From Dehalococcoidia bacterium (GTDB lineage Bacteria; Chloroflexota; Dehalococcoidia; Bin125): a stretch of DNA of 64,000 nucleotides. The notes under the pieces are model-generated. The model did no database searches, was not told where the DNA came from, and was given only the letters and a program-made list of their open reading frames with translations. Location of the stretch: the NCBI GenBank assembly GCA_965203995.1, contig OZ241962.1:1092782-1156781 (forward strand), read 5' to 3'. The position numbers and the translations under genes are program-made. Below, one piece after another: positions 36,888 to 49,026 of this stretch; the stretch's first letter is position 1; every line of letters starts with the position of its first letter.

Positions 36888-37358
36888 TTACCAGCGGTAG
36901 TGCGCGAATGCGCGGTTGGCTTCCGCCATACGGTGCGTTTCCTCCCGCCGCCGCACGGCGGCGCCGGTGTTGCTGTATGCGTCGAGCAGCTCATCCGCCA
37001 GCGATAGGTGCGCCGGTCGGCCCTTGCGCGACTGCGCCGAGGTCACCAACCAACGGATCCCCAGCGAGGTCCGGCGGTCGTGCCGAATCTCCACCGGGAC
37101 CTGGTAAGTCGCCCCGCCCACGCGCCGGGGACGCACTTCCATCTCCGGCGTGATATTGTTCAGCGCCTGGTCGAACACCTCCAGCGGATCCTGCCGTACA
37201 CGCTCTTCGAGGATGTCGAGCGCCTTGTACACGATTCGTTCCGCGGTGCCCTTCTTGCCGTTGCGCATCAGCCGATTGATCACCATCTGCACCCGCTGCG
37301 ATCCATAGACCGCATCCGGGCGAATCTCGTGTCGGTCGGGCCGTCGTCGTCGCGGCAC
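36888..37358 (-). CDS. rpsG: 30S ribosomal protein S7
   Basis: MPRRRRPDRHEIRPDAVYGSQRVQMVINRLMRNGKKGTAERIVY. Confidence 0.95.
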   Translation of the reverse strand: MPRRRRPDRHEIRPDAVYGSQRVQMVINRLMRNGKKGTAERIVYKALDILEERVRQDPLEVFDQALNNITPEMEVRPRRVGGATYQVPVEIRHDRRTSLGIRWLVTSAQSRKGRPAHLSLADELLDAYSNTGAAVRRREETHRMAEANRAFAHYRW

Positions 37359-37433
37359 GCTGCGTCATCCATCTCTAACGCGAGTCGGTCGGACCCATGC
37401 CCGAACCGCCCGCAACACTAAAGCGACCACCCG

Positions 37434-37871
37434 TCAGTGGGTGGCCGCGGTCGTCAATCCTGCCGTCTTGCGAGTTCCGTACTTGGAACGCCCTCGCTTC
37501 CGCTCGGCGACGCCAAGCGCATCGAGCGCTCCGCGTACCACCTGATAGCGAACGCCGGGCAAGTCACGAACGCGACCGCCGCGCACCAGCACGATTGAGT
37601 GCTCCTGCAAGGTGTGACCCTCGCCGGGGATGTAAGCCGTGACTTCGATCCCATTGGTCAGCCGCACACGGCAGACCTTGCGCAAGGCGGAGTTCGGCTT
37701 CTTGGGCGTCACCGTGCGCACGGCCGTGCAGACTCCGCGCTTCTGCGGCGAACCTGAGTCCTGCGACGTCCGGCTGGTCAACGCGTTGTAGCGGAACCGC
37801 AAGGCCGGCGCCTTCGCCTTCTTGCGGGTCTTCTTGCGTCCCTTGCGGGCCAACTGATTGATGGTCGGCAC
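37434..37871 (-). CDS. rpsL: 30S ribosomal protein S12 (with ~13-aa insertion and C-terminal extension)
   Basis: [18 protein letters not shown] ... [19 protein letters not shown]. Insertion [15 protein letters not shown] precedes GSPQKRGVC. Confidence 0.93.
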
Positions 37872-38053
37872 GGTCGCTGCTCGATTTCCGCCTCGTAGTC
37901 CTCCAGGCCGGCGCGCTCACGCGGGCTCTGGCACGAATACAGGGTCAAAGCCGCTGGTTGATCGAACCGGCGCTGGCCGGTGGTCATCAACCGCTGGTCG
38001 GCCTCGACCCTTCCCCGCGCCCGACCGCCTCTGCGACAGGCGCGTGAAACGCC

Positions 38054-38082
38054 ACGATAACCCATTCCTGACCCGACCTGCA
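38054..38082 (-). promoter_or_regulatory. Candidate sigma70-type promoter of the str operon (TTGCAG-17-TTATCGTG)
   Basis: AT-richer hexamers in the 273-bp ccsA/rpsL intergenic region. Same motif architecture as the candidate rplI promoter. Confidence 0.3.
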
Positions 38083-38144
38083 AGATGCCTGACCGAGCCC
38101 CCCCGACACTTCCGCTGCTGTGTGTTGCCAAGCTTTCAGACCAC

Positions 38145-39065
38145 TCAGACGCCTGCATACGAGTGCAACCCCGTGATCCACAGATTCACGCCCAAATAGG
38201 TGAACATCACAGCGAAGAAGCCCAGTACCACGATCCATGCCTTGCGCGACCCGCGAAACAGCCGCAGCCAGCGACCATGGATGTAGACCGCAAAGATCAA
38301 CCAGGTCACCAGCGCCGCCGTCTCCTTCGGATCCCAGCCCCAGTAGCGACCCCAAGCGTCGTTCGCCCAGAACGCTCCCAGGGCAATCCCCGCCCCGAGC
38401 AAGGGAAATCCCACCAGCACGGCGCGATAGGTCAGCTCGTCGCATCGTTCCTCGGATGGCAACCAGGCATAGCGTCCGCCACGTTCCGCCCCCGCGTCCG
38501 GAAACCCTTGCAGCAGATGCATGGCCGCCCCGCCGAATGCCACTGCCAGCACCGCGTACGAGAGGATCATCAACGCCACGTGAATCGTCAGCAGAGTCGG
38601 ACTTTGCAGGGCCGGCACCAGGATCTCCTGCCCCTCGCTGGGAAACGCCAGCGCCGACCCGTACAGCCCGCAGGCGACCGGCAACACGAACGCCCCCGGC
38701 AACCTCGTCCCCGACCTCAGCTCGAAGATGCCGTAGAGCAGTACGATCGCAATGCCGAACGCCATGGAGAACTCAAACAGGTTGCTGTACGGCGCGTGAT
38801 TCAGCGCCACCGTGCGCATCACCAGACCGACAATCCCCAGTACCGCCGCCGTCCACACGCTCAGCGTCGCTACTCCGCCCAGTGTCGGCGAACGCAGCGG
38901 CGCCGGTTCCGCAGTGCCGAACGAGGATGGTTCCGTGGCAAGCACCCGCCGCGGCGCCCAGCCCAGCCGCAGCTTCGGTTGCACGGCGTACACCACGTAG
39001 GTCAGCGCCGCGCAGCCGGCCGCGACGAAACTCGCCCAGAGCATGAACAGGGCGCCGTCAGCCAT
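38145..39065 (-). CDS. ccsA: Cytochrome c-type biogenesis protein CcsA/ResC (system II heme handling)
   Basis: WWD-domain signature WGRYWGWDPKETAALVTWLIFAVYIHGR. Multi-TM. 306 aa. Confidence 0.85.
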   Translation of the reverse strand: MADGALFMLWASFVAAGCAALTYVVYAVQPKLRLGWAPRRVLATEPSSFGTAEPAPLRSPTLGGVATLSVWTAAVLGIVGLVMRTVALNHAPYSNLFEFSMAFGIAIVLLYGIFELRSGTRLPGAFVLPVACGLYGSALAFPSEGQEILVPALQSPTLLTIHVALMILSYAVLAVAFGGAAMHLLQGFPDAGAERGGRYAWLPSEERCDELTYRAVLVGFPLLGAGIALGAFWANDAWGRYWGWDPKETAALVTWLIFAVYIHGRWLRLFRGSRKAWIVVLGFFAVMFTYLGVNLWITGLHSYAGV

Positions 39066-39861
39066 CGCGATCCCGCTCCGATTCCTCGGCCTTCGCCTCA
39101 GCGCGCAGCGCGTCTGCTCGGCGTGGCGGCTGCGACCCGCCGAAGGTCAGACGGCGGAACCCCTCGGCCCAAGGCACCCGCCCTGCCCGTGCCGCCTGCT
39201 CCGATCGACGCTGCATCCGCTTCGCCATCTCGTCGCGATTTGCCGCCTGCACCTGAGAGGCATGGCGCAGCAGCGCGTCGATCCTGCGGTCCTGCTGGTC
39301 CGAGACATCGACAAAGAAGTTCGCTTCATTGCTGCCTGCGAGCAGCACCGTGTTCACCCGTACGGGTTCAACGCCGCTCGCCACCTGCTCCGCATACGAG
39401 TTCGCGTTGCGCGACAGCGGGAACACCGCATCCAGCGCCGCAATCCCTACCGTTCGGTGATCGCGATGGTTGAACCCTCGATACCCGTCCCACGTGATCA
39501 TGAGCTCGGGCCGTACTTCACGCAGCACACGGACCATTTGTCCACGAAACTCCGAGCCGTCCTCAACGTGTCCGTCCGGTACGCGCAGAAAGATGCAGCG
39601 CTTGATCCCCAGCTCCCTCGCCGCCGCCTCCTGCTCGGCCTCGCGCAGCGCCCCCAAGTCGGCCGGACCGAGCTTGGGATCCTTCGTCCCCTTGTCACCA
39701 CTCGTGACCAGGCAGAAGGTCACATCCCAACCCTCGTCCGAGAGCTGCGCAACCGTGCCGCCGCAGGTGAACTCGATATCGTCCGGGTGCGCCATCACGA
39801 CCAGCGCCCGCCGTGTTTCCGCAGCCGTCTCGGCGTCTGGCATCTCGACTCCTCGACCCAA
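39058..39861 (-). CDS. PIG-L/LmbE-family N-acetylglucosaminyl deacetylase (MshB/BshB-like)
   Basis: AHPDDIEFTCGG (HPDDE-type) and downstream H-x-D-H (FNHRDHRTVG) zinc-ligand motifs. 267 aa. 8-nt overlap with ccsA. Confidence 0.75.
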   Translation of the reverse strand: MGRGVEMPDAETAAETRRALVVMAHPDDIEFTCGGTVAQLSDEGWDVTFCLVTSGDKGTKDPKLGPADLGALREAEQEAAARELGIKRCIFLRVPDGHVEDGSEFRGQMVRVLREVRPELMITWDGYRGFNHRDHRTVGIAALDAVFPLSRNANSYAEQVASGVEPVRVNTVLLAGSNEANFFVDVSDQQDRRIDALLRHASQVQAANRDEMAKRMQRRSEQAARAGRVPWAEGFRRLTFGGSQPPRRADALRAEAKAEESERDRDG

Positions 39862-39873
39862 ACTGCAGCGAAA

Positions 39874-41175
39874 TCAGCTCGCCGCCACCAGCAGCGATTC
39901 TGCCGGATCCGGACAGCACGACTCCCGCTGCCAATCCGACATCGCCCGTTCGCGCAGCAGAGCCTCGTAAACATCCAGAATACTGGCGGCCACGCATTGC
40001 CAGGAGTACACGGACATCGCGTTTGCTGCAGCCCCGCCCATCCGGACTCTCAACGGCTCATCCGAGAGCAATCGCCCGATGGCCGAAGCAAACTGCTCGG
40101 GCCTTCGCTGCGACACCAGCATCCCCGTCCTCCCATGCGCGATCGTGCTCGCCAGGCCGCCTACACGGGTCGCCACCGCCGGCGTTCCCGAAGCCATCGC
40201 TTCGACCGCGACCAATCCAAACGACTCATATGCGGACGGCACCGCACAGACGCTTGCCGCCCGGTACAGGTCCGGCAACTGCTCACGTCCGACCGCATTG
40301 ACGAAGCGCACTCGGCCGCCGACGCCGCCGTCCTCGGCGAGCTGTCGCAAGCGCGATCGCTCCGCTTCGTCCCGTTCGTCACCGCCCACGATCCACAGCG
40401 TGGCGTCGGGCCGCGCCTCAATCATCGGCAGCGCCTGGACCAGCAGGTCGACTCCCTTGGCCGGCTCCAACCGTCCCACGAACAGGATTCCGGGACCATC
40501 GAAAACACCCAGCTCCGGCAACGCCTCGGCCACGCGTCGCCGCGCCGCCTTCAGCCCGTTCGGGTGGAACTTCTCCAGGTCCAAACCGCAAGGGACGACC
40601 TGTACTCGCGACGCTTCCGCGCCATACTGGCCGATCAGGAATGCTCGTTCATGCGAAGTCGCGCCAATCACCACGTCGGCACAGTTCACCACACGGCGTT
40701 CGCCCGCGATCCGATACTGCGGCTCCGGTTGCTGGAACATCTGCTTAACCGCGCCCAGCGTGTGGAACATCGCGGCGTGCGGAATCTGCCATCGCCGGGC
40801 CAACTCAATGCCGCTCAGGCCGGATACCCAATAGTGAGAATGCACCAAGTCGTAACCGCCGCCGCGTTGCGTGACTTCGGCAACGCCGTCGGTGAACTCC
40901 GAGACATGCCCGGCTACCTCCATCGGCGTCAACGGCGCCGTCGGTCCCGCCGCGACGTGGAACAGGCGCACGCCCGGCGCGAGCTCCTCAACGAGCGGCG
41001 CGTCCACCCGATCGCGCCGGGTGAACACATCAACCTCCCAGCCAAGCCGTCCCAACTGGCGGGACAGCTCAGCGACATACACGTTCATTCCGCCGGCCTT
41101 GGTTGTACCCGCCCGGGCCAACGGAGATGTATGCGTCGAAATCACGGCCAGACGCCGCTGCGGCCGCAACATCAC
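39874..41175 (-). CDS. GT4-family retaining glycosyltransferase, MshA/BshA-like
   Basis: N-terminus ISTHTSPLARAGTTKAGGMNVYVAELSRQLG resembles MshA-type N-domains. C-terminal GT4 E-x7-E region (ESFGLVAVEAMASGTPAV). 433 aa. Confidence 0.8.
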   Translation of the reverse strand: MMLRPQRRLAVISTHTSPLARAGTTKAGGMNVYVAELSRQLGRLGWEVDVFTRRDRVDAPLVEELAPGVRLFHVAAGPTAPLTPMEVAGHVSEFTDGVAEVTQRGGGYDLVHSHYWVSGLSGIELARRWQIPHAAMFHTLGAVKQMFQQPEPQYRIAGERRVVNCADVVIGATSHERAFLIGQYGAEASRVQVVPCGLDLEKFHPNGLKAARRRVAEALPELGVFDGPGILFVGRLEPAKGVDLLVQALPMIEARPDATLWIVGGDERDEAERSRLRQLAEDGGVGGRVRFVNAVGREQLPDLYRAASVCAVPSAYESFGLVAVEAMASGTPAVATRVGGLASTIAHGRTGMLVSQRRPEQFASAIGRLLSDEPLRVRMGGAAANAMSVYSWQCVAASILDVYEALLRERAMSDWQRESCCPDPAESLLVAAS

Positions 41176-42162
41176 TCGCCCTCCCGAGTGAGTCGCATCC
41201 GGCGCACCACAGCGTCGCGGCCGCCCAGTTCATACTTGTATGGCTCGTCACCGCGCAGGAAGTTCACGCTCGACATCCCCCGCTCAACCGCATCTCGAAT
41301 GCACAGCACTTTCGATCCCAGCCCGGCCGACAGCTCCCGGAACTTAGGATCGTAGCCACTGTTGTACAGCAGCAGCTGATTTCGAGCCACGAAGCACAAC
41401 ACCATCGCCGCCGCCTCGCCCGAAATCGACATCACATATAGCCGCAGCAAACCGGCCTCGGACAGCGATCCTGTCAGGCGCTTGAAAAATGCGCGCATCT
41501 CGTCGGTCAGGAAGACCGCCTTGTCGCCTCGCGAGTCGGCCATCATCGCTATGAACTCCGGCATCCGCCCGGCGACCTCGTCGGGCGTCTCCGCCGCTTC
41601 GAACGCGACAGCGCCGCGCAACTGCCGCAACGGTCGCAGCTTGCGCCGCACCTCACGACGATCACGCGATCGCAGATTCGCCACGTAATCGTCCCATCCG
41701 TGCCCGATCTCGACGGTGGGACAGACCGCCTCGTCCGAGACATCCAGCCGCCAGCCACGTCCGATCGCGACCGCAAAGGCGTCCACCCAGGCCGATCCGG
41801 GCTCGAGACCTCGGAACTCCGCTGTCAGCGCGCCCGCATCCTCCAGACGATCCAAGACCGCCTCCGCCAGCGCGGGTTCTTGTCCCCGCATCGCCGTCGG
41901 ACCCAGGTAATCTGAGACTTCATGATCGCCGGCAAATGACCAGTGCGTACCGCAGCGCTTGAGCGGCGCCAGTCCGACCAGTTCTCCGGAACCGTTCTCG
42001 AGGCCCAGCAACTCGACCTCGGCCGTGCTCGACTCACCAAACACCGACCACCAGGCTTGTCCAAACTCCGGCGTCGAGAACGGCATCGCCTCGGCCGAGC
42101 GGCTCAATGCGCTCCAGCGCTCGCTCAGTTCGGCGAACCCCCCGCGTACGACCGTCAGACTC
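41172..42162 (-). CDS. CelD/BioF2-like GNAT-fold acyltransferase (Acetyltransf_6/FemAB-like superfamily)
   Basis: FSTPEFGQAWWSVFG...LYNSGYDPKFRELSAGLGSKVLCIRDAVERGMSSVNFLRGDEPYKYELGG matches the CelD-like GNAT architecture. The track ORF (to 42503) overlaps folE. GTG at 42160-42162 overlaps the folE stop (GTGA). Confidence 0.65.
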
Positions 42163-42736
42163 ACAGCCGCTGCGTCCCAACCAGCGAGAGGAACTCCGCC
42201 CGCGTCTCCTGCTGCTCTCGGAAACTGCCCCGCATGGCCGATGTCAGCATGCGCGAGCCCGGTTTCTTGATCCCGCGCATTTGCATGCACAGATGCTCTG
42301 CTTCGACAGCCACGCCGGCACCCTGCGGTTGCAGCGTCTCCATCAGCATGTCCGCAACCTGGGCCGTCAATCGCTCCTGCAACTGCGGCCGCCGCGCGAT
42401 CGCGTCGACGAGTCGGGCCAGCTTCGACAGGCCGACCACCCGGCCGTTCGGCACGTAACCCACGTGCGCCACTCCGTGAAACGGCATCAAGTGATGCTCG
42501 CACATTGAGAAAAACGGCACATCTCTGAGGATCACCATCTCGTCGTGACCTTCTTCGAACCCCACCGACAGCAACCTGGGAATGTCCACGTCGCGGCCGC
42601 CCAGCGTCTCCTCAAAGGCCGCCACCACCCGCCGCGGCGTTTCCAGCAAACCCTCGCGCGCCGGATCCTCGCCGAGCGCCAGCAACAACTCGCGCACCGC
42701 CGCCTCGGCCCGCTCCCGATCCACCAGGCTGCTCAT
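42161..42736 (-). CDS. folE: GTP cyclohydrolase I
   Basis: [12 protein letters not shown]...[34 protein letters not shown]. 191 aa. Confidence 0.93.
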
Positions 42737-43824
42737 GCGAGCCCCTCCCTGATCACCGCCTCCGCCTCTTCGTACTCGGGTCCGATCTCCACCACATCGG
42801 CCTGAATCGACTCAATTGCTCGTTCCGGATCCTTCAAGCCGTGCCCGGTGATGGTGCAGACCACGCGCCAGCCGGCCAACGACCCGTCGCCGTGCCGCGA
42901 GAGCAGTCCGGCTACCGAGGCCGCCGAGGCCGGCTCACAGAACACGCCTTCCTCGCCGGCCAACGTGCGATAGGCATGCAGAATCTCGTCATCGCCGACG
43001 GCGATGATTGCTCCCCGCGACTCATCGCGCGCCGCCACGGCGCCATCCCATGACGCCGGCGATCCAATCCGGATCGCGGTCGCAATCGTCTCCGGCTGTT
43101 CGACCGGCCGGCCCAGCACCAGTGGTGCTGCGCCCGCTGCTTGCACGCCCAGCATCCGCGGATGCCTCGACGATCGTTCGGCCTGGAAGTACTCCCGATA
43201 TCCACGCCAGTACGCCGTGATGTTGCCCGCGTTGCCCACCGGGATGCAGTGCAGATCCGGTGCGTCGCCGAGTTCATCGACGATCTCCATCGCGGCCGTC
43301 TTCTGACCGTCGATCCGGTACGGATTCACCGAATTGACCAACGCCACCGGCAGGTGTTCGGTCAGTCTCTGGGCCGAACGCAGCGCATCGTCGAAGTTGC
43401 CGTCGACAGCCAGGATCTTCGCCCCGTGTGCTGCCGCTTGGGCCAGCTTGCCCTTGGCGATCCGCCCTTCCGGAACCAGCACGAACGCTCGTAATCCGCA
43501 GCGGGCCGCGTACGCCGCCGCCGACGCGCTCGTGTTTCCCGTTGACGCACAGAGCACCGCCGTCGCCCCCTGTTCGATCGCCTTCGCCACCGCCACCGCC
43601 ATGCCTCGATCCTTGAACGACCCGGTCGGGTTGCACATTTCCAGTTTCAGCCAGACCTCGTCCGCTCCGGTCGCCCGTTCCAGGCTCCTCGCTCGCACCA
43701 GGGGCGTGCTGCCTTCGCCCAGCGACACGCGGGGCGTCGATGCATCGATCGGCAGCCAATCGGCGTAGCGCTCCAGCACGCCGCCGCTGGCCCACGGCTC
43801 CGACCTGACCGCGCTGCTAGTCAT
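42733..43824 (-). CDS. thrC: Threonine synthase
   Basis: PLP-binding [21 protein letters not shown]. 363 aa. Confidence 0.9.
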
Positions 43825-44863
43825 CGCCGCGCACCCGCAGGTAGGACTTCAACTCTCGGATCTCCTGCTCCAGCTCTTCGATCTGCCGCCGCCGGATCTG
43901 CTCCTGCAACGACACGAATCGTTCCTGCTCCTGGGCTGTCAGACTCGACACGCCGTCGATCCGATCGCCCAGCGACGCCACGGCGCGCTCGCGCCGCGCA
44001 TCGCGCGCGCGAAGCTGCTCCCCCATTCGTTCGATGTTGCCAATTCGCTCCTCGATCGCCTCAAAACCACGCTGAACCGACGAGACAACTGCTTTGGACG
44101 CGTCCAGAGCCTGCAGCGATTCCTCCACACGGCCGCGCAGCGCCTCCACGTTCGTGCTCAGATCCTCCCACTGCTCGGCCGTCTCCTGCACGCGCCGCAA
44201 GCTCTGATACGACAGCTCCAGCCGCTCGGTCAGACTGCCCACCTGACGCTCAAGCGAATCTACTCGCGTCTCCAGCGCGCTGCCGTCGCTCGCCGACCGC
44301 CGGATCCCGTCCGCGTTCGCCGAGATCCGCGCGCCCAGCGCTACCTGGCTATTCTCGATCTGCGACATACGGTGCGCGGTCTCGCCGCTCTCCGCGTTGA
44401 CTCGGCGGATCGACTCGTCGAACACTTCCAGCCGCTCGCGCAAATCGTTCAGCGCCTTTTCGCTCGCCTGCAGCCGCCGCAGCGAATCATTACCCGACTC
44501 ACGCACCCCATCGAGTTCCTGCCGCGCCTGGCGGACCGACGCGTCCACCAGCTCCCGATGCTCGGCCAGATCGGCGTTGAACCGGTTCATCCGCTCGCGC
44601 AGGTTTTGTAGCTCGTCGAGCTGGCGCGCGGCCGCGCCGATCTCAGCGGACAGCGACAGCGCCTTCCCCTCCAGCTCGCGCATGCGCTGATCCAGCGCGT
44701 CAATCTCCCGCTCCTCGCGCACCCGCGACTGCGCCAACTCGGCCGTTCTGCTCTGCAGGCCGGTCAGCGACTCCTCGAAGCGCAGCCAGCGCCCTTCACT
44801 ACCCTCGCCCGGGTTACTGGTCGTCACGGCCGTCCTCGATCCGCAGCCGCACGCCCAATTCAA
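43817..44863 (-). CDS. Coiled-coil protein of unknown function (inserted between hom and thrC)
   Basis: 348 aa, almost entirely heptad-like E/R/L/Q-rich sequence (e.g. [26 protein letters not shown]). Overlaps thrC start by 8 nt and hom end by up to 50 nt. Confidence 0.6.
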
Positions 44864-46121
44864 TCAGGCTGCTCGAGTGGGCCAGCTTGTCGAGCACCCG
44901 GTCGATCGCCCCATCGGTACAGGCATGAGTCGTCACGATCAGATCCGCCGACCGGCTGCGCTCGGGGTGCGGAGTCTGCAACACCGAAGCGATGCTCACG
45001 CTCTCGGCGGCGAACACCGCTCCCAGCTCCGCCAGCACCCCGGCCCGGTCGGGAACCTCCAGCCGCAGATATGCGGGTACGCAGATGTCTTCGAGCGAAG
45101 CCAGCAGCGGCGACGACTCCAGTCGTCGCTGTTGGCGCGGCTGCTGGCTTGACGCCATGCGGCCGGCGACGTCCAGGATGTCCGCCACCACCGCGCTCGA
45201 TGTCGCGCCCGACCCCGCGCCCGCTCCTTCCAGCATCACCGAACCAATCAGATCGCCCGACACCGACACCGCGTTCAGTACGCCCTCCACGCCGGCCATC
45301 GGATCCTCGAGCGGCACCAGCGTCGGATGCACGCGTAGGTCAAGCCCGGTCGGCGTACGCCGAGCTGTCGCCAGCATTCGGATCGCATAGCCCAGATCGC
45401 GCGCGTGGACGAAGTCCCGCGCCGCCAGCGAACGAATACCCTCGCGGTACACGTCGTCCGGCGCGACCTCCGCGTGAAACGCCAACGATGCCAGGATCGC
45501 CAGCTTGTACGCCGCATCGATCCCGTCCACGTCGTTGGTCGGATCGGCCTCGGCGTAGCCGAGTCGCTGGGCATCACCCAGGGCGTCGGCATAACTCAGC
45601 CCGTCGCGAGACATCGCCGTGATCATGTAGTTCGTGGTGCCGTTGATGATCGCCCGAACTGACGACACCTCATTCGCCTGCAGTTCCCGCTGCAACACTC
45701 CGATGATCGGGATCCCGCCGCCCACACTCGCCTCGTAGCGCAGTTCCACCCCCCGCGACTCGGCCAGCGACAACAGCGCCGACCCTCGCTTGGCCATCAC
45801 TTCCTTGTTGGCGGTCACTACCGACTTGCCAGCCGACAGCGCCGCCTCGATACACTCTGAGGCTGGCGTCTCCCCGCCCATGAGTTCCACGATGATGTCG
45901 AGATCGTCGCGCGTCGCCACCTCCGCAGGGTCGGTAGACAGCGACAGCCCATTCGCCGCTAACGCCGACCGCGACGACACGTCTCGCACCGCCGCCGCGC
46001 GGACTTCCAACCCGCGGCCGCAGCGTTGTTCGTAAGCCTGCGCATTCGCTTGCAACGCCTCTAGGACGCCGCCTCCGACGACCCCCAGTCCCAGCAAGCC
46101 AATGCCCAGCGACTCACCCAT
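44814..46121 (-). CDS. hom: Homoserine dehydrogenase
   Basis: [23 protein letters not shown]-binding region. C-terminal ACT domain. 435 aa. Confidence 0.9.
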   Translation of the reverse strand: MGESLGIGLLGLGVVGGGVLEALQANAQAYEQRCGRGLEVRAAAVRDVSSRSALAANGLSLSTDPAEVATRDDLDIIVELMGGETPASECIEAALSAGKSVVTANKEVMAKRGSALLSLAESRGVELRYEASVGGGIPIIGVLQRELQANEVSSVRAIINGTTNYMITAMSRDGLSYADALGDAQRLGYAEADPTNDVDGIDAAYKLAILASLAFHAEVAPDDVYREGIRSLAARDFVHARDLGYAIRMLATARRTPTGLDLRVHPTLVPLEDPMAGVEGVLNAVSVSGDLIGSVMLEGAGAGSGATSSAVVADILDVAGRMASSQQPRQQRRLESSPLLASLEDICVPAYLRLEVPDRAGVLAELGAVFAAESVSIASVLQTPHPERSRSADLIVTTHACTDGAIDRVLDKLAHSSSLIELGVRLRIEDGRDDQ

Positions 46122-46897
46122 CAGGCGCCGGATTCCTCGTCCGCCGGCGGGTCCGCCGTTTCCTGCGGCGCGTCCATCGCTTCAGCAGCTTCCGTTGTTT
46201 CGGTTGGCTCCTCGGTCGAAGCCACGCTGGGCGCCGGCTCCGCCGCTTCCTGCGGTGCGTCCGTCGCTTCAGCAGCTTCCGTTGTTTCGGTTGGCTCCTC
46301 GGTCGAAGCCACGCTGGGCGCCGGTTCCGCCGCTTCCTGCGGCGCGTCCGTCGTTTCAGCGGCTTGCGTTGTTTCGGTTGGCTCTGCAGCTGGGACGACC
46401 GTGGCCGACTCCAATATCTCCGCCACCGCAGCCGCAGGCGCCTCGGACGCGGCAGACTCAGCCTCGGCGCCGTCAGGCGCCGCCTCGGACGGCGGCGCGT
46501 CGTCCAACTCCGCTCGCATCGCTCGCTGCGCCATCCGCGTCACCATCCGGAACCGCGAGGTTTGGCGCATGTGCTCGGCCGTGTAGGGCAACAGCGCCAC
46601 TTGCCGGGCCCGCTTGATCTCGCGCGCAATCTTGCGCTGATCCTTGGCCGTCAATCCCGTCTTGCGTCGCGGCTCGATCCGGCCCCGATCTGAGATCAAC
46701 TTGCGCAGCCTGTCCACGTCCTTGTAGTCGATGGTCGCCACCTCTTGCGGGGTGAACACCGGCGCACGCCGCCGCCGACCACGACGCCGCGTACGCTCGA
46801 TCATCTGCGGCAGCCGCTCGCCCGCTTCGGGCGCAGGCCGGATCACCGGCGCCGGGGACGGCGCCGCCTCAATGTTCGGTTCCGGTTCAGTCGTCAT
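46121..46897 (-). CDS. rpsR: 30S ribosomal protein S18 with long tandem-repeat C-terminal tail
   Basis: Core [59 protein letters not shown]. Followed by 3x [29 protein letters not shown]. An alternative start at MIERTRRRG (46804) is possible. Confidence 0.9.
46150..46395. repeat. 3x 87-bp near-perfect tandem repeat inside rpsR coding sequence
   Basis: Unit ccgccgcttcctgcggtgcgtccgtcgcttcagcagcttccgttgtttcggttggctcctcggtcgaagccacgctgggcgccgg[c/t]tc, repeated from ~46152. Confidence 0.9.
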
Positions 46898-46950
46898 TCG
46901 TACATCTCCTGAGAACAGTCTCCAGCGCTCATCTCAGAGCGCAGCATCGC

Positions 46951-47388
46951 CTACTCAAACGGCAAATCCCCGGCATCGGGTCCGCCGCCAGGGTCTCCAG
47001 GTCCTTCATCCCAGTTACCGCCGCCACTGTCGCCGAAATCTCCGCCCCCACCACCTCGGCCGCCCAAGAATTGAATGTCGTTGGCGACGACCTCGGTGGT
47101 GTAGCGATTGTTTCCTTCGCGGTCCTGCCACTGCCTCGTCTGCAGGCGACCTTCCACGAACACGGGGCGGCCCTTGCTCAGGTACTGTCCACAGAGCTCA
47201 GCAAGTCGCTGCCAAGCGACAATCGTGACCCACTCGGTTACCTCCTGGCGCTGCCCCTCCCGATCGGTGTAGGAGCGACTGCACGCGATCCGGAAGTTGG
47301 CGACCGCCGCTCCGTTGGCGGTAAAGCGCAACTCCGGGTCGGCGCCCAGGTTGCCGATCAACATCACCTTGTTCAGTCCAGCCATCAA
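46951..47388 (-). CDS. ssb: Single-stranded DNA-binding protein
   Basis: [22 protein letters not shown]. Gly-rich linker. Acidic tip ...DLPFE. Confidence 0.95.
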
Positions 47389-47416
47389 TGCACCCCCGCG
47401 CTCATGCGTCCGCAGG

Positions 47417-47719
47417 CTAACGGTCGCGACGGACGATCAGGTGACGCAGCACCTGCTCGTCGATCAACAGCGACTGTTCCAGCTCATCACGGCGCGAATC
47501 CGGCCCGCCGTCGTAATGCGCCAGCAGGTAATGACCCTCGTACGACTGCTTGATCGGATACGCCAGCCGGCGCCGGCCCCAATCGATCACCTCAGTCACG
47601 TCGTTGCCGTACTCGGTCAGCGTGCCGCGCAGATGCGCCATCCGCTCTTCCACCTGCTCACCCGCGACATCGGGGTGCAGCACCACCATGATCTCATACT
47701 CAGTGTCGCCCTGCGCCAT
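47417..47719 (-). CDS. rpsF: 30S ribosomal protein S6
   Basis: [18 protein letters not shown] ... [14 protein letters not shown] extends to 47767. Confidence 0.9.
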
Positions 47720-47763
47720 GTCTCGCTCCTCCGGTTGCGTTCGGTTGTCTGGTTCGTCTCGGC

Positions 47764-49026
47764 TCAACTGCCAATCCCGGGAATCGGGAAGCCCGACGCC
47801 AGTTCGCGCACCTCTGCGCCCACGCGCCGGTGCTCGTCCGCGTCGTCAATGTGATCCAGCACGCGGCCAATCAGTCCTGCCACCTGCGACATCTCGTCCT
47901 CGCCCATCCCCCGAGTCGTCAGCGCCGGCGTGCCGATCCTGATGCCCGACGTCACCGTGGGACGCCGCGTGTCGTAGGGAATCGTGTTCTTGTTCACCGT
48001 GATCCCCGACGCGTCCAGCGCCGCCTCCGCCGCCTTGCCGGTCAGCCCCTTGACGCCCACGTCCAGCAACAGCAGGTGATTGTCGGTCCCGCCCGAGACC
48101 ACCCGCCAGCCCTCTGATTGCAACCCAGCCGCGAGCGCGCGAGCGTTCGCCACGATCTGCGCGGCATAAGTCGCGAACTCCGGTGTCGACGCCTCCTTCA
48201 GCGCGACCGCCTTCGCCGCAATCGTGTGCATGTGCGGACCGCCCGAGGTGCCCGGGAAGATCGCGCGATCGATCGGCCGCGCCATCTCGTCGTTGGTCAG
48301 GATCAACGCCGAGCGGGGCCCGCGCAGGGTCTTGTGCGTCGTCGTCGTCACCACCGGCGCATACGGCACTGGCGACGGATGCACGCCGCCCGCGACCAGG
48401 CCCGCAATATGCGCCATGTCGACCATCAGCACCGATTCCACTGACACTGCAATCTCGGCCGCGAGAGCGAAATCGAAGATCCGCGGATAGGCCGTCGCGC
48501 CGACCACGATCACTTTGGGTCGGTGCTCGCGGGCCAACTCGGCCATGGCGTCGTAATCGATCTGTTCCGTCTCCGGATCCACCCCGTAGGACACGAACTC
48601 GAACCAGCGGCCGGAAATGTTGACCGGCAGCCCGTGCGTCAAGTGGCCGCCGTGATTCAGCTCCAGACCCATCGCGGTGTCGCCAGGCGAGAGCAGCGCA
48701 AAGTAGGCCGCAATGTTCGCCTGCGTGCCCGAATGCGCCTGCACATTCGCGTGGTCTGCGTCGAACAGCGCCTTGGCCCGTTCGATCGCCAACTCCTCCA
48801 CCACGTCCACGAACTCACAGCCGCCGTAGTAACGCTTGCCCGGATAGCCCTCGGCGTACTTGTTGGTCAGCACAGACCCCATCGCCGCCAGGACCGGCTC
48901 GGATGGATAATTCTCCGACGCGATTAGCTCCAGGCCGTCCCGCTGCCGCCCGGCCTCCCGCTCGATTGCCGAGGCGATCTCCGCATCGGCCGCATCCAGA
49001 GCAGCCCCTGCCAACGTCAGCGCCAT
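47764..49026 (-). CDS. glyA: Serine hydroxymethyltransferase
   Basis: [40 protein letters not shown] ... [12 protein letters not shown] (PLP Lys). Confidence 0.95.

What the first reader, a model, noticed from the sequence alone, without database searches (positions are those of the whole stretch)
39058..42736. Translationally coupled folE / CelD-Fem-like acyltransferase / MshA-BshA-like GT4 / LmbE deacetylase module: candidate undescribed glycoside-thiol (bacillithiol/mycothiol-like) pathway
Four consecutive minus-strand genes share 4-nt or near-zero overlaps. thrC/folE and folE/acyltransferase overlap as GTGA-type junctions. The GT4/LmbE pair has a 12-nt gap, and LmbE overlaps ccsA by 8 nt. 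A retaining GT4 with an MshA-type N-terminus (ISTHTSPLA...GGMNVYV) followed by a PIG-L/LmbE deacetylase (HPDDxE, HxDH) is the defining BshA-BshB / MshA-MshB pair of low-molecular-weight thiol biosynthesis. Where a cysteine-adding enzyme (BshC/MshC) would be expected, there is a CelD/BioF2-like GNAT-fold protein of the superfamily that includes Fem aminoacyl-tRNA-dependent transferases. This combination suggests aminoacylation or acylation of a glucosamine-aglycone intermediate by a non-canonical enzyme. The folE and ccsA genes at the two ends hint at pterin and cytochrome c maturation links.
Basis: partly seen in the sequence, partly recalled or inferred. Interest (0 to 1): 0.72.

Follow-up and report, generated by a model that had tools for sequence, protein, structure and literature searches.

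The report
Mycothiol-like cassette with Fem-type transferase
A Chloroflexota genome carries a conserved three-gene set (sugar transferase, de-acetylase, Fem-type transferase) that probably builds a mycothiol-like amino-acid–glucosamine compound, with a tRNA-dependent enzyme doing the step that known pathways give to a dedicated cysteine ligase; the product has not been identified.

Summary
On the minus strand lie thrC, folE, a PF13480 protein ("AcT6", 330 aa from GTG 42164), a GT4, a PIG-L/LmbE deacetylase and ccsB, joined by overlaps or short gaps.

- **GT4:** MshA-like. It scores 363.6 bits on the MshA model (cutoff 462.5); the next family scores 135.6. It is about 40% identical to C. glutamicum MshA. 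Nine of ten ligand residues are invariant; K78 is Pro.
- **AcT6:** a confident AlphaFold model (pLDDT 94.5) matches only aminoacyl-tRNA-dependent transferases over its full length. These are FemA/FemX, MprF, and Sbb17/Sba18, which aminoacylate an amino sugar. It has an invariant basic helix and a Tyr-Lys pair.
- **Triad conservation:** AcT6–GT4–LmbE recurs in four different genomic contexts. In one lineage an MshD-like tandem GNAT sits inside it.
- **folE and ccsB:** both are only lineage-specific neighbours.

Best reading: GlcNAc-aglycone synthesis, then de-N-acetylation, then tRNA-dependent aminoacylation of the glucosamine amine. Cysteine is the favoured but untested amino acid.

I could not check whether mshC, bshC or ino1 exist elsewhere in the genome. 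I rate this a new variant of a known kind.

The parts
41172..42164 (-). AcT6: a 330-aa PF13480 (Acetyltransf_6) protein with a Fem/MprF-type tandem-GNAT fold. Proposed aminoacyl-tRNA-dependent N-acyltransferase acting on the freed glucosamine amine.
39874..41172 (-). MshA-like retaining GT4 glycosyltransferase (432 aa). Proposed UDP-GlcNAc:acceptor alpha-GlcNAc transferase.
   Evidence: Pfam Glyco_transf_4 + Glycos_transf_1. TIGR03449 MshA 363.6 bits, below the 462.5 cutoff; next family 135.6. PDB 3c48 CgMshA 275 bits, then TeSPS 232 bits. N25, Y110, H133, T134, R154, R231, K236, E316 and E324 are invariant; K78 is Pro.
39058..39843 (-). LmbE/PIG-L family zinc de-N-acetylase (261 aa from ATG 39843; the alternative start is TTG 39861).
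   Evidence: PF02585, 111.9 bits. Best NCBIfam match is BshB1 at 98.4 bits, below the 182.5 cutoff. Best PDB matches are LnmX 5bmo and diacetylchitobiose deacetylases. AHPDD and HRDH motifs are present. GAGGAG at 39854-39849 lies upstream of the ATG.
38145..39065 (-). ccsB (system II cytochrome c biogenesis, ResC-type). It overlaps LmbE by 8 nt. It is a conserved neighbour only within the Dehalococcoidia lineage and is probably not part of the pathway.
   Evidence: TIGR03144, 224.5 bits, above the 187.6 cutoff. Adjacent in L001-L037 and L084-L086. Absent in L040, L088/89 and L095/96.
42161..42736 (-). folE (GTP cyclohydrolase I). Upstream neighbour, coupled through a GTGA junction. Not part of the conserved module.
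   Evidence: NF006826, 264.3 bits, above cutoff. folE is missing beside the triad in L084, L085, L040 and L088/89.
42161..42164 (-). GTGA junction: the folE stop overlaps the AcT6 GTG start.
   Evidence: Sequence read.
41170..41175 (-). GTGATG junction: the AcT6 stop (TGA 41174-41172) overlaps the GT4 start (GTG 41175 or ATG 41172).
   Evidence: Sequence read. Across lineages the AcT6/GT4 junction ranges from a 4-nt overlap to a 28-nt gap.

Best explanation
AcT6-GT4-LmbE is a cytoplasmic three-enzyme cassette. It makes a small N-aminoacyl-glucosaminyl glycoside built like mycothiol or bacillithiol.

- Step 1 (inferred from family and conserved active-site residues): the MshA-like GT4 transfers GlcNAc from UDP-GlcNAc to an anionic small acceptor. 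myo-Inositol-1-phosphate or a close analogue is most likely.
- Step 2 (inferred from family and motifs): the LmbE zinc hydrolase removes the N-acetyl group and exposes the C2 amine.
- Step 3 (inferred from fold, conserved motifs and gene order): the Fem-type AcT6 transfers an aminoacyl group from an aminoacyl-tRNA to that amine. This is the amide-forming step that MshC does in mycothiol synthesis and that is assigned to BshC in bacillithiol synthesis. Sbb17/Sba18/Orf11 do the same chemistry on the amino sugar of streptothrisamine.

Cysteine is the favoured amino acid by analogy with both known GlcN-based thiols, but its identity is untested. folE and ccsB are co-transcribed neighbours, not demonstrated pathway members.
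For: - The GT4 matches MshA far better than any other family in every lineage: 355-416 bits against 159 or less. CgMshA is the top PDB sequence match.
- Nine of ten CgMshA ligand positions are invariant in 120 homologues.
- LmbE has the PIG-L domain and the metal and catalytic motifs.
- An invariant Arg/Lys helix sits at the start of GNAT domain 2, and an invariant Tyr309-Lys310 near the C-terminus. This fits the tRNA-binding helix and the aromatic-Lys pair described for FemXWv (Lys305) and DhpH-C (Phe328-Lys329) in PMC12945691.
- The triad order is kept in 37 close loci and in L084-L086.
- The triad is also kept in two other contexts: next to the dcw cluster in L040 and L088/89, and in L095/96.
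- In L095/96 a tandem GNAT lies between the GT4 and PIG-L genes. Its best NCBIfam hit is mycothiol synthase MshD: 81.6 bits, full length, below the 163.1 cutoff.
- All three window proteins lack strong hydrophobic segments.
Against: - No biochemical data exist. The product, the amino acid and the aglycone are unknown.
- The GT4 is below the MshA equivalog cutoff and sits in a separate branch of a large star-like radiation.
- The residue equivalent to CgMshA K78 is Pro in 117 of 120 members of this clade. From my memory of the CgMshA structure paper, K78 is a phosphate ligand. The acceptor may therefore differ.
- PF13480 is not the curated FemAB family. It includes BspF, which NCBIfam names a crotonyl transferase, so an acyl-CoA donor is not excluded.
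- The equivalence of K310 to FemX K305 was not checked by superposition.
- AcT6 homologues in Anaerolineales are solitary.
- The rest of the genome could not be searched for ino1, mshC, bshC or mshD. None is in the 64-kb window.
- No dedicated tRNA gene is in the window.
Confidence: 0.5

Rival explanations
1. The pathway logic is the same (GlcNAc-glycoside, de-N-acetylation, re-N-acylation), but AcT6 uses an acyl-CoA or acyl-ACP donor. The product is an N-acyl-glucosaminyl glycoside such as a compatible solute, not an aminoacyl conjugate.
For: - PF13480 is annotated as a GNAT acetyltransferase family.
- The only NCBIfam hit is BspF, named a crotonyl transferase, at 36 bits.
- AcT6 keeps a Gly-x-Gly/Ala segment (A280-G281-L282-G283) after beta4 of domain 2 that resembles the GNAT pyrophosphate loop (sequence; G281 is invariant).
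- Deacetylate-then-reacylate logic with acyl donors is established knowledge (LpxC/LpxD, NodB/NodA).
Against: - The invariant basic helix and the Tyr-Lys pair fit the Fem mechanism.
Confidence: 0.2
2. GT4 and LmbE are simply the mshA/mshB (or bshA/bshB) equivalents of a canonical thiol pathway whose ligase (mshC/bshC) is encoded elsewhere. AcT6 does an unrelated or accessory job, for example branching of a peptidoglycan precursor as FemX/MurM do.
For: - Fem-type enzymes classically act on peptidoglycan precursors.
- In L040 and L088/89 the triad lies directly upstream of mraZ-rsmH-ftsL-PBP-murE.
- In Anaerolineales the AcT6 homologue occurs without an adjacent GT4 or LmbE.
- The rest of the genome was not searchable.
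Against: - AcT6 is the gene most tightly joined to the GT4 in all lineages, from a 4-nt overlap to a 28-nt gap.
- The AcT6-first order is kept in four contexts, three of them without dcw genes nearby.
- More distant AcT6 paralogues (about 30% identical) are also always paired with a GT4.
Confidence: 0.12
3. The cassette builds a membrane or envelope glycoconjugate. This would be a GlcN-phosphatidylinositol-type or GlcN-lipid head group (PIG-A/PIG-L logic) that is then aminoacylated in the manner of MprF to tune surface charge.
For: - PIG-L is the name-giving GlcNAc-PI de-N-acetylase family.
- The change of K78 to Pro could reflect a phosphodiester rather than a phosphomonoester acceptor (inference).
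- A membrane protein gene (ccsB, or DUF502 in L095) is adjacent.
Against: - The GT4 scores far higher on soluble MshA than on lipid-acceptor GT4 models: GlcN_PG_synth 68 bits, and PimA-type PDB entries about 82 bits.
- None of the three proteins has a hydrophobic anchor.
- No flippase or polyprenyl-phosphate genes are nearby.
- The L040 and L089 GT4s keep K78.
Confidence: 0.1
4. The cassette is an aminoglycoside-type secondary-metabolite fragment (a GT4 plus deacetylase pair as in the 2-deoxystreptamine pathways). Alternatively, the adjacency is inherited synteny with no shared function.
For: - From memory, GT4/LmbE pairs occur in aminoglycoside clusters.
- The whole region glyA...tuf is strongly syntenic in this lineage, so some adjacency is inherited.
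Against: - The neighbourhood holds no other biosynthetic genes. The module sits among core housekeeping genes in every genome examined.
- The triad persists when all flanking genes change.
Confidence: 0.04

Closest known systems
Mycothiol biosynthesis (MshA, MshA2, MshB, MshC, MshD) of Actinobacteria
   Same: An MshA-type GT4 with conserved donor and acceptor residues. An LmbE-family deacetylase follows it. Then comes an enzyme positioned to form an amide on the GlcN amine. One related lineage adds an MshD-like tandem GNAT.
   Different: - The ligase position is filled by a Fem-type tandem-GNAT transferase, not the CysRS paralogue MshC.
- The GT4 and LmbE are below the MshA and MshB equivalog cutoffs.
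- The GT4 lies outside the actinobacterial clade, and K78 is Pro.
- The three genes are clustered and translationally coupled.
- The organism is a Chloroflexota (Dehalococcoidia) MAG.
Bacillithiol biosynthesis (BshA, BshB, BshC)
   Same: GT4 followed by an LmbE deacetylase followed by addition of an amino acid to GlcN. The LmbE's best NCBIfam match is BshB1. As with bshB1/bshA in B. subtilis (from memory), the genes are embedded among housekeeping genes.
   Different: The GT4 scores only 89 bits on the BshA model (cutoff 273.7). There is no BshC-like gene in the locus. The transferase has a different fold.
Orf11/Sba18/Sbb17 of BD-12 (streptothricin-type) biosynthesis: Gly-tRNA-dependent aminoacylation of the amino sugar of streptothrisamine
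   Different: - It is a secondary-metabolite enzyme from Streptomyces.
- There is no sequence-level relationship detectable by HMMER.
- The acceptor scaffold is different.
- AcT6 belongs to Pfam PF13480.
FemX/FemA/MurM peptidoglycan branching enzymes and the MprF aminoacyl-phosphatidylglycerol synthase domain
   Same: A double-GNAT fold, a basic helix on domain 2, and an aromatic-Lys pair near the C-terminus.
   Different: AcT6 has no coiled-coil insertion and no membrane domain. It has no gathering-score hit to Pfam FemAB. Its genomic partner is a soluble MshA-like GT rather than Mur or lipid genes.
PIG-A/PIG-L (first two steps of GPI anchor synthesis) and aminoglycoside GT/deacetylase pairs
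   Same: A GT4 GlcNAc transferase followed by a PIG-L-family de-N-acetylase.
   Different: Those acceptors are lipid or cyclitol. Neither system has a Fem-type partner. The GT4 here is much closer to MshA.

Membership tests
MshA (D-inositol-3-phosphate glycosyltransferase, TIGR03449) | GT-B GT4 architecture (Glyco_transf_4 + Glycos_transf_1) | tested here: met
   PF13439 99.1 bits and PF00534 145 bits.
MshA (D-inositol-3-phosphate glycosyltransferase, TIGR03449) | Score at or above the curated equivalog cutoff (462.5 bits) | tested here: not met
   363.6 bits for the window protein, and 355-416 bits for GT4s of other triad lineages. MshA is nevertheless the best family by more than 200 bits.
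MshA (D-inositol-3-phosphate glycosyltransferase, TIGR03449) | Conservation of the UDP and inositol-phosphate ligand residues of CgMshA (N25, K78, Y110, H133, T134, R154, R231, K236, E316, E324). The residue roles are from my memory of Vetting et al. 2008; the numbering was checked. | tested here: inconclusive
   Nine of ten are invariant in 120 homologues. K78 is Pro in 117 of 120. It is kept as Lys in the L040 and L089 triad GT4s.
MshA (D-inositol-3-phosphate glycosyltransferase, TIGR03449) | Placement inside the clade of characterised actinobacterial MshA | tested here: not met
   In the NJ tree of 150 representatives the window clade is separate from the CgMshA cluster, within a star-like radiation (1583 representatives at E<=1e-30).
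MshA (D-inositol-3-phosphate glycosyltransferase, TIGR03449) | UDP-GlcNAc + 1L-myo-inositol-1-phosphate activity, and presence of ino1 in the genome | not testable with these tools
   There is no enzyme assay. No ino1 is in the window.
LmbE / PIG-L de-N-acetylases (MshB, BshB) | PIG-L domain above the gathering score, with the AHPDD and HxDH metal/catalytic motifs | tested here: met
   PF02585 111.9 bits against 28.2. AHPDDIE and HRDH are in the translation.
LmbE / PIG-L de-N-acetylases (MshB, BshB) | Equivalog-level match to BshB1, BshB2 or MshB | tested here: not met
   BshB1 98.4 against 182.5; BshB2 73.5 against 195.25; MshB 56.3 against 224.35. The best PDB matches are LnmX and diacetylchitobiose deacetylase.
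Fem/MprF-type aminoacyl-tRNA-dependent transferases | Double-GNAT fold with full-length structural similarity to solved members | tested here: met
Fem/MprF-type aminoacyl-tRNA-dependent transferases | Positively charged (tRNA-binding) helix on GNAT domain 2 | tested here: met
   Helix 166-181 (RDRREVRRKLRPLRQL) carries invariant R169, R173, R174, K175 and R177 in 231 homologues. The criterion comes from PMC12945691. tRNA binding itself was not tested.
Fem/MprF-type aminoacyl-tRNA-dependent transferases | Catalytic Lys preceded by an aromatic residue near the C-terminus (FemXWv Lys305; DhpH-C Phe328-Lys329) | tested here: inconclusive
   Y309-K310 is invariant, within F302-L303-x-G305-x-E307-x-Y309-K310. 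Its spatial equivalence to Lys305 was not verified, because coordinates could not be superposed.
Fem/MprF-type aminoacyl-tRNA-dependent transferases | Sequence membership in Pfam FemAB (PF02388) or FemAB_like (PF04339) | tested here: not met
   Only PF13480 passes for the window protein. Some homologues carry weak PF04339 or PF02388 hits. No PDB relative is found by sequence or by profile.
Fem/MprF-type aminoacyl-tRNA-dependent transferases | Use of an aminoacyl-tRNA donor | not testable with these tools
   This needs an in-vitro assay with aminoacyl-tRNA and an RNase control.
GlcN-based low-molecular-weight thiol pathway (mycothiol/bacillithiol type) | Cysteine is the residue attached to GlcN, and a thiol product accumulates | not testable with these tools
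   No specificity code exists for Fem-type enzymes, and there is no metabolite data.
GlcN-based low-molecular-weight thiol pathway (mycothiol/bacillithiol type) | Presence of a canonical ligase (MshC or BshC) and of MshD | tested here: inconclusive
   Neither is encoded in the window or in any triad locus. The exception is the MshD-like GNAT in L095/96, at 81.6 bits against a cutoff of 163.1. Whole genomes could not be searched.

The most novel reading that the evidence does not exclude
Many Chloroflexota (Dehalococcoidia-type lineages, some from sponge microbiomes) make an undescribed low-molecular-weight thiol, Cys-GlcN-inositol or an analogue. They do so by a tRNA-dependent route: ordinary Cys-tRNA(Cys) plus a Fem-type transferase replace the dedicated ATP-dependent ligases MshC and BshC. 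The tight coupling to ccsB in one lineage might then reflect a use of this thiol in cytochrome c maturation.
Probability: 0.3. Interest if true: 0.85.

Novelty: new variant of a known kind. Interest (0 to 1): 0.62.

Why it matters
**A third solution for an amide-forming step.** Both known glucosamine-based redox buffers, mycothiol and bacillithiol, are built by a GT4, an LmbE deacetylase and a dedicated cysteine-adding enzyme. The BshC step, to my recollection, has not been reconstituted in vitro. A conserved cassette in which a Fem-type transferase takes that position would be a third, mechanistically distinct way to form this amide bond.

**A wider role for Fem enzymes.** It would extend aminoacyl-tRNA-dependent Fem chemistry from cell walls, lipids and antibiotics to a soluble primary metabolite.

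**A gap in Chloroflexota biology.** It would give a testable candidate for the unknown thiol or solute of a large, mostly uncultured phylum. A full-text search found no paper that mentions both Dehalococcoidia and mycothiol.

**Directly testable.** The three genes are short and predicted soluble, so they can be expressed heterologously.

Tried and rejected
**Searches that found nothing**
- A sequence search and a profile search of AcT6 against the PDB gave no real hits. Only the fold comparison was informative.
- Literature searches for Chloroflexi or Dehalococcoidia with mycothiol, bacillithiol or FemAB found no description of this cassette. The BcsL/CelD search was uninformative.
- The CgMshA structure paper was not held, so the residue roles rest on memory. 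The numbering was verified.
- The promoter and terminator scan of 37300-47800 was at background level.
- There are no tRNA genes in the window.
- The metagenome scan with the L040 AcT6 returned one truncated locus.
- The afdb50 fold library was unavailable.

**Readings considered and rejected**
- folE as part of the pathway: its adjacency is lost in four lineages.
- ccsB as a core member: it is lost in three lineages.
- A BshA identity for the GT4: it scores 89 bits.
- A generic glycogen or LPS GT4.
- A defence-system GT4: the PF20706 hit is generic to GT4 proteins.
- A secondary-metabolite cluster: there are no accessory genes.

**Not possible with the available tools**
- Searching the rest of the genome, or closed relatives such as OZ242948.1, for ino1, mshC, bshC, mshD or gshA.

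Full report
**1. Observation**

The minus strand of 38145-43824 carries six tightly packed genes.

| Gene | Coordinates | Family evidence |
|---|---|---|
| thrC | 42733-43824 | TIGR00260, 287.6 bits |
| folE | 42161-42736 | NF006826, 264.3 bits |
| AcT6 | 41172-42164 | PF13480, 107.7 bits |
| GT4 | 39874-41172 | Glyco_transf_4 + Glycos_transf_1 |
| LmbE | 39058-39843 | PF02585, 111.9 bits |
| ccsB | 38145-39065 | TIGR03144, 224.5 bits (cutoff 187.6) |

The junctions were read directly:
- thrC/folE is ATGA.
- folE/AcT6 is GTGA. This sets the AcT6 start at GTG 42164, so the protein is 330 aa. That agrees with database protein P0001.
- AcT6/GT4 is GTGATG.
- LmbE most likely starts at ATG 39843, preceded by GAGGAG.
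- LmbE and ccsB overlap by 8 nt.

Overlapping junctions also join unrelated upstream genes: cc/thrC overlap by 8 nt and rpsR/hom by 1 nt. Coupling alone is thus weak evidence for a shared function.

**2. Setting**

The window is about 66% G+C. It is otherwise core housekeeping: dnaE, dnaB, aspartokinase, a GHMP kinase, tmk, glyA, hom, ribosomal protein operons, rpoA, metK, ahcY and plsX. No ino1, mshC, bshC or mshD-like gene is in the window, and no tRNA gene either.

Close homologues come from Dehalococcoidia/Chloroflexota MAGs. By their isolate names, many appear to come from sponge metagenomes.

**3. Conservation**

The order AcT6-GT4-LmbE was found in four contexts.

| Context | Loci | Flanking genes |
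|---|---|---|
| (i) | 37 loci of the close lineage, plus L086 | glyA...hom-cc-thrC-folE-[triad]-ccsB-rpsL |
| (ii) | L084, L085 | folE and rpsL replaced by other genes; triad-ccsB remains |
| (iii) | L040; a contig assigned to Cand. Handelsmanbacteria (L088/89) | [triad]-(NIF3)-CT398-(mraZ)-rsmH-ftsL-PBP-(murE); no folE, no ccsB |
| (iv) | L095, L096 | folE-AcT6-GT4-DUF502-(tandem GNAT, opposite strand)-PIG-L; no ccsB |

Further observations:
- The GT4s of these lineages are only 39-50% identical to one another. AcT6 identities fall to about 30-40%.
- Anaerolineales homologues of AcT6 are solitary.
- Paralogues about 30% identical, in Limnocylindria-type MAGs, always precede a different GT4 inside polysaccharide-type clusters.

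The triad is therefore the conserved unit. folE and ccsB are lineage-specific neighbours.

**4. The glycosyltransferase**

- It scores 363.6 bits on the MshA model TIGR03449. That is below the 462.5 cutoff but far above the next family at 135.6; BshA scores only 89.
- GT4s of the other triad lineages behave the same way, at 355-416 bits.
- The best solved relatives are C. glutamicum MshA (275 bits, about 40% identity) and the Thermosynechococcus sucrose-phosphate synthase (232 bits). Both act on phosphorylated small acceptors.
- Of ten CgMshA ligand positions, nine are invariant in 120 homologues. K78 is Pro in 117 of 120 but remains Lys in L040 and L089. The residue roles come from my memory of Vetting et al. 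2008; the numbering was checked.
- An exhaustive search found 1583 representatives at E<=1e-30. A neighbour-joining tree of the best 150 is star-like. The window clade is distinct from the CgMshA cluster, and K78-to-Pro changes are scattered across the tree.

Conclusion: this is a member of the broad MshA-like radiation, not a demonstrable MshA orthologue. The donor is probably UDP-GlcNAc, since a deacetylase follows. The acceptor is probably an inositol-phosphate-like anion, but this is uncertain.

**5. The deacetylase**

It has the PIG-L domain and the AHPDD and HRDH motifs. It is below every equivalog cutoff; BshB1 is the best at 98 bits. Its nearest solved relatives are LnmX and archaeal diacetylchitobiose deacetylases. 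It is a generic LmbE-family enzyme whose role is inferred from context.

**6. AcT6**

- No solved relative is detectable by sequence or by profile.
- An AlphaFold2 model built on 40 homologues is confident: pLDDT 94.5, pTM 0.91.
- Foldseek agrees. FemXWv gives TM 0.63-0.65; Sba18/Sbb17 give TMt 0.69-0.72 with the highest identity, 21%. CoA-dependent tandem GNATs give 0.51 or less.
- Across 231 homologues a basic helix (R169, E171, R173, R174, K175, R177) is invariant, as is the C-terminal F302-L303-x-G305-x-E307-x-Y309-K310.
- A 2026 review lists the family hallmarks as two GNAT domains, a positively charged tRNA-binding helix on domain 2 and a catalytic Lys (FemXWv Lys305; DhpH-C Phe328-Lys329). 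It records Orf11 as a Gly-tRNA-dependent enzyme that acylates the amino sugar intermediate streptothrisamine (PMC12945691).
- AcT6, GT4 and LmbE lack strong hydrophobic segments.

**7. The MshD-like gene**

In L095/96 a 301-aa tandem GNAT lies between the GT4 and PIG-L genes. Its best NCBIfam match is mycothiol synthase MshD: 81.6 bits against a cutoff of 163.1, aligned over its full length. Its best PDB sequence matches are tandem GNATs (MAB_4324 and a Sphaerobacter GNAT), then MshD itself.

This is weak but independent support for a mycothiol-like end product. In such a product, an amino acid attached to GlcN is itself N-acetylated.

**8. Mechanism proposed**

1. The GT4 makes GlcNAc-alpha-aglycone.
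2. LmbE removes the acetyl group.
3. AcT6 transfers an aminoacyl group from an aminoacyl-tRNA to the GlcN amine.

All three steps are inferred. None is shown.

The logic mirrors mycothiol and bacillithiol synthesis. In mycothiol synthesis the amide is made by MshC, a CysRS paralogue that works without tRNA (PMC2922099). Here the ordinary aminoacyl-tRNA synthetase plus a Fem-type ligase would do the job. Cysteine is the favoured amino acid by analogy only.

Rivals are an acyl-CoA donor, a canonical ligase elsewhere with AcT6 doing something else, a membrane glycoconjugate, or a secondary-metabolite fragment or mere synteny. They are listed separately with estimated probabilities.

**9. Comparison and novelty**

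The cassette works like the first three steps of mycothiol or bacillithiol synthesis. It fails the equivalog tests for MshA, MshB and BshB, and it uses a different ligase family. No curated NCBIfam model covers AcT6. The literature searches found no description of such a cassette. I class it as a new variant of a known kind.

**10. Limits**

- The rest of the genome could not be searched.
- The amino acid, the aglycone and the donor type are untested.
- The equivalence of K310 to the Fem catalytic lysine was not verified by superposition.
- Part of the observed conservation is inherited synteny within one phylum.

Noticed in passing
L089 1302-1375 (also L088 1310-1383): A tRNA-Ile gene with anticodon TAT lies about 135 nt upstream of the Fem-like AcT6 gene of the triad, on the contig assigned to Cand. 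Handelsmanbacteria. To my recollection tRNA-Ile(UAU) is uncommon in bacteria. Its position next to a putative tRNA-dependent transferase may be coincidence.
   Followed up: no
window 43817-44863 (-): A coiled-coil protein of about 340 aa, with no Pfam family above cutoff, sits between hom and thrC in nearly all relatives of this lineage examined (absent in L095/96). It overlaps thrC by 8 nt.
   Followed up: partly
window 46121-46897 (-): The ORF containing ribosomal protein S18 is 258 aa, but the S18 domain covers only residues 54-103. In several relatives a separate no-Pfam gene of 239-330 aa lies at this position. The ORF is therefore either S18 with a long extension or two genes merged by the mechanical ORF call.
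   Followed up: no
window 38145-39065 (-): ccsB (ResC-type) has no resB/ccs1 partner next to it, here or in relatives. In much of the Dehalococcoidia lineage it follows LmbE closely, from an 8-nt overlap here to gaps of 1-2 nt, though gaps reach 39-140 nt in L002, L084 and L085.
   Followed up: partly
L038-L083 (e.g. L047 7944-10336): AcT6 paralogues about 30% identical, in Limnocylindria/'Chloroflexia' MAGs, are always followed by a different GT4. In L047 this lies within a polysaccharide-type cluster (GT87, UDP-glucose dehydrogenase, epimerase, GT2). Pairing of Fem-like PF13480 proteins with glycosyltransferases may be a wider theme.
   Followed up: partly
L040 3488-4270: In L040 the triad is followed by a NIF3/DUF34 gene and a CT398-type zinc-ribbon gene, then rsmH-ftsL-PBP. 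The Handelsmanbacteria contig shows the same dcw-adjacent placement.
   Followed up: no
L004 6489-7409 and 12132-15140: One relative has a diacylglycerol-kinase-like gene inserted between thrC and folE, and a type ISP restriction-modification gene inserted between ccsB and rpsL. The syntenic block therefore tolerates insertions at its edges but not inside the triad.
   Followed up: no
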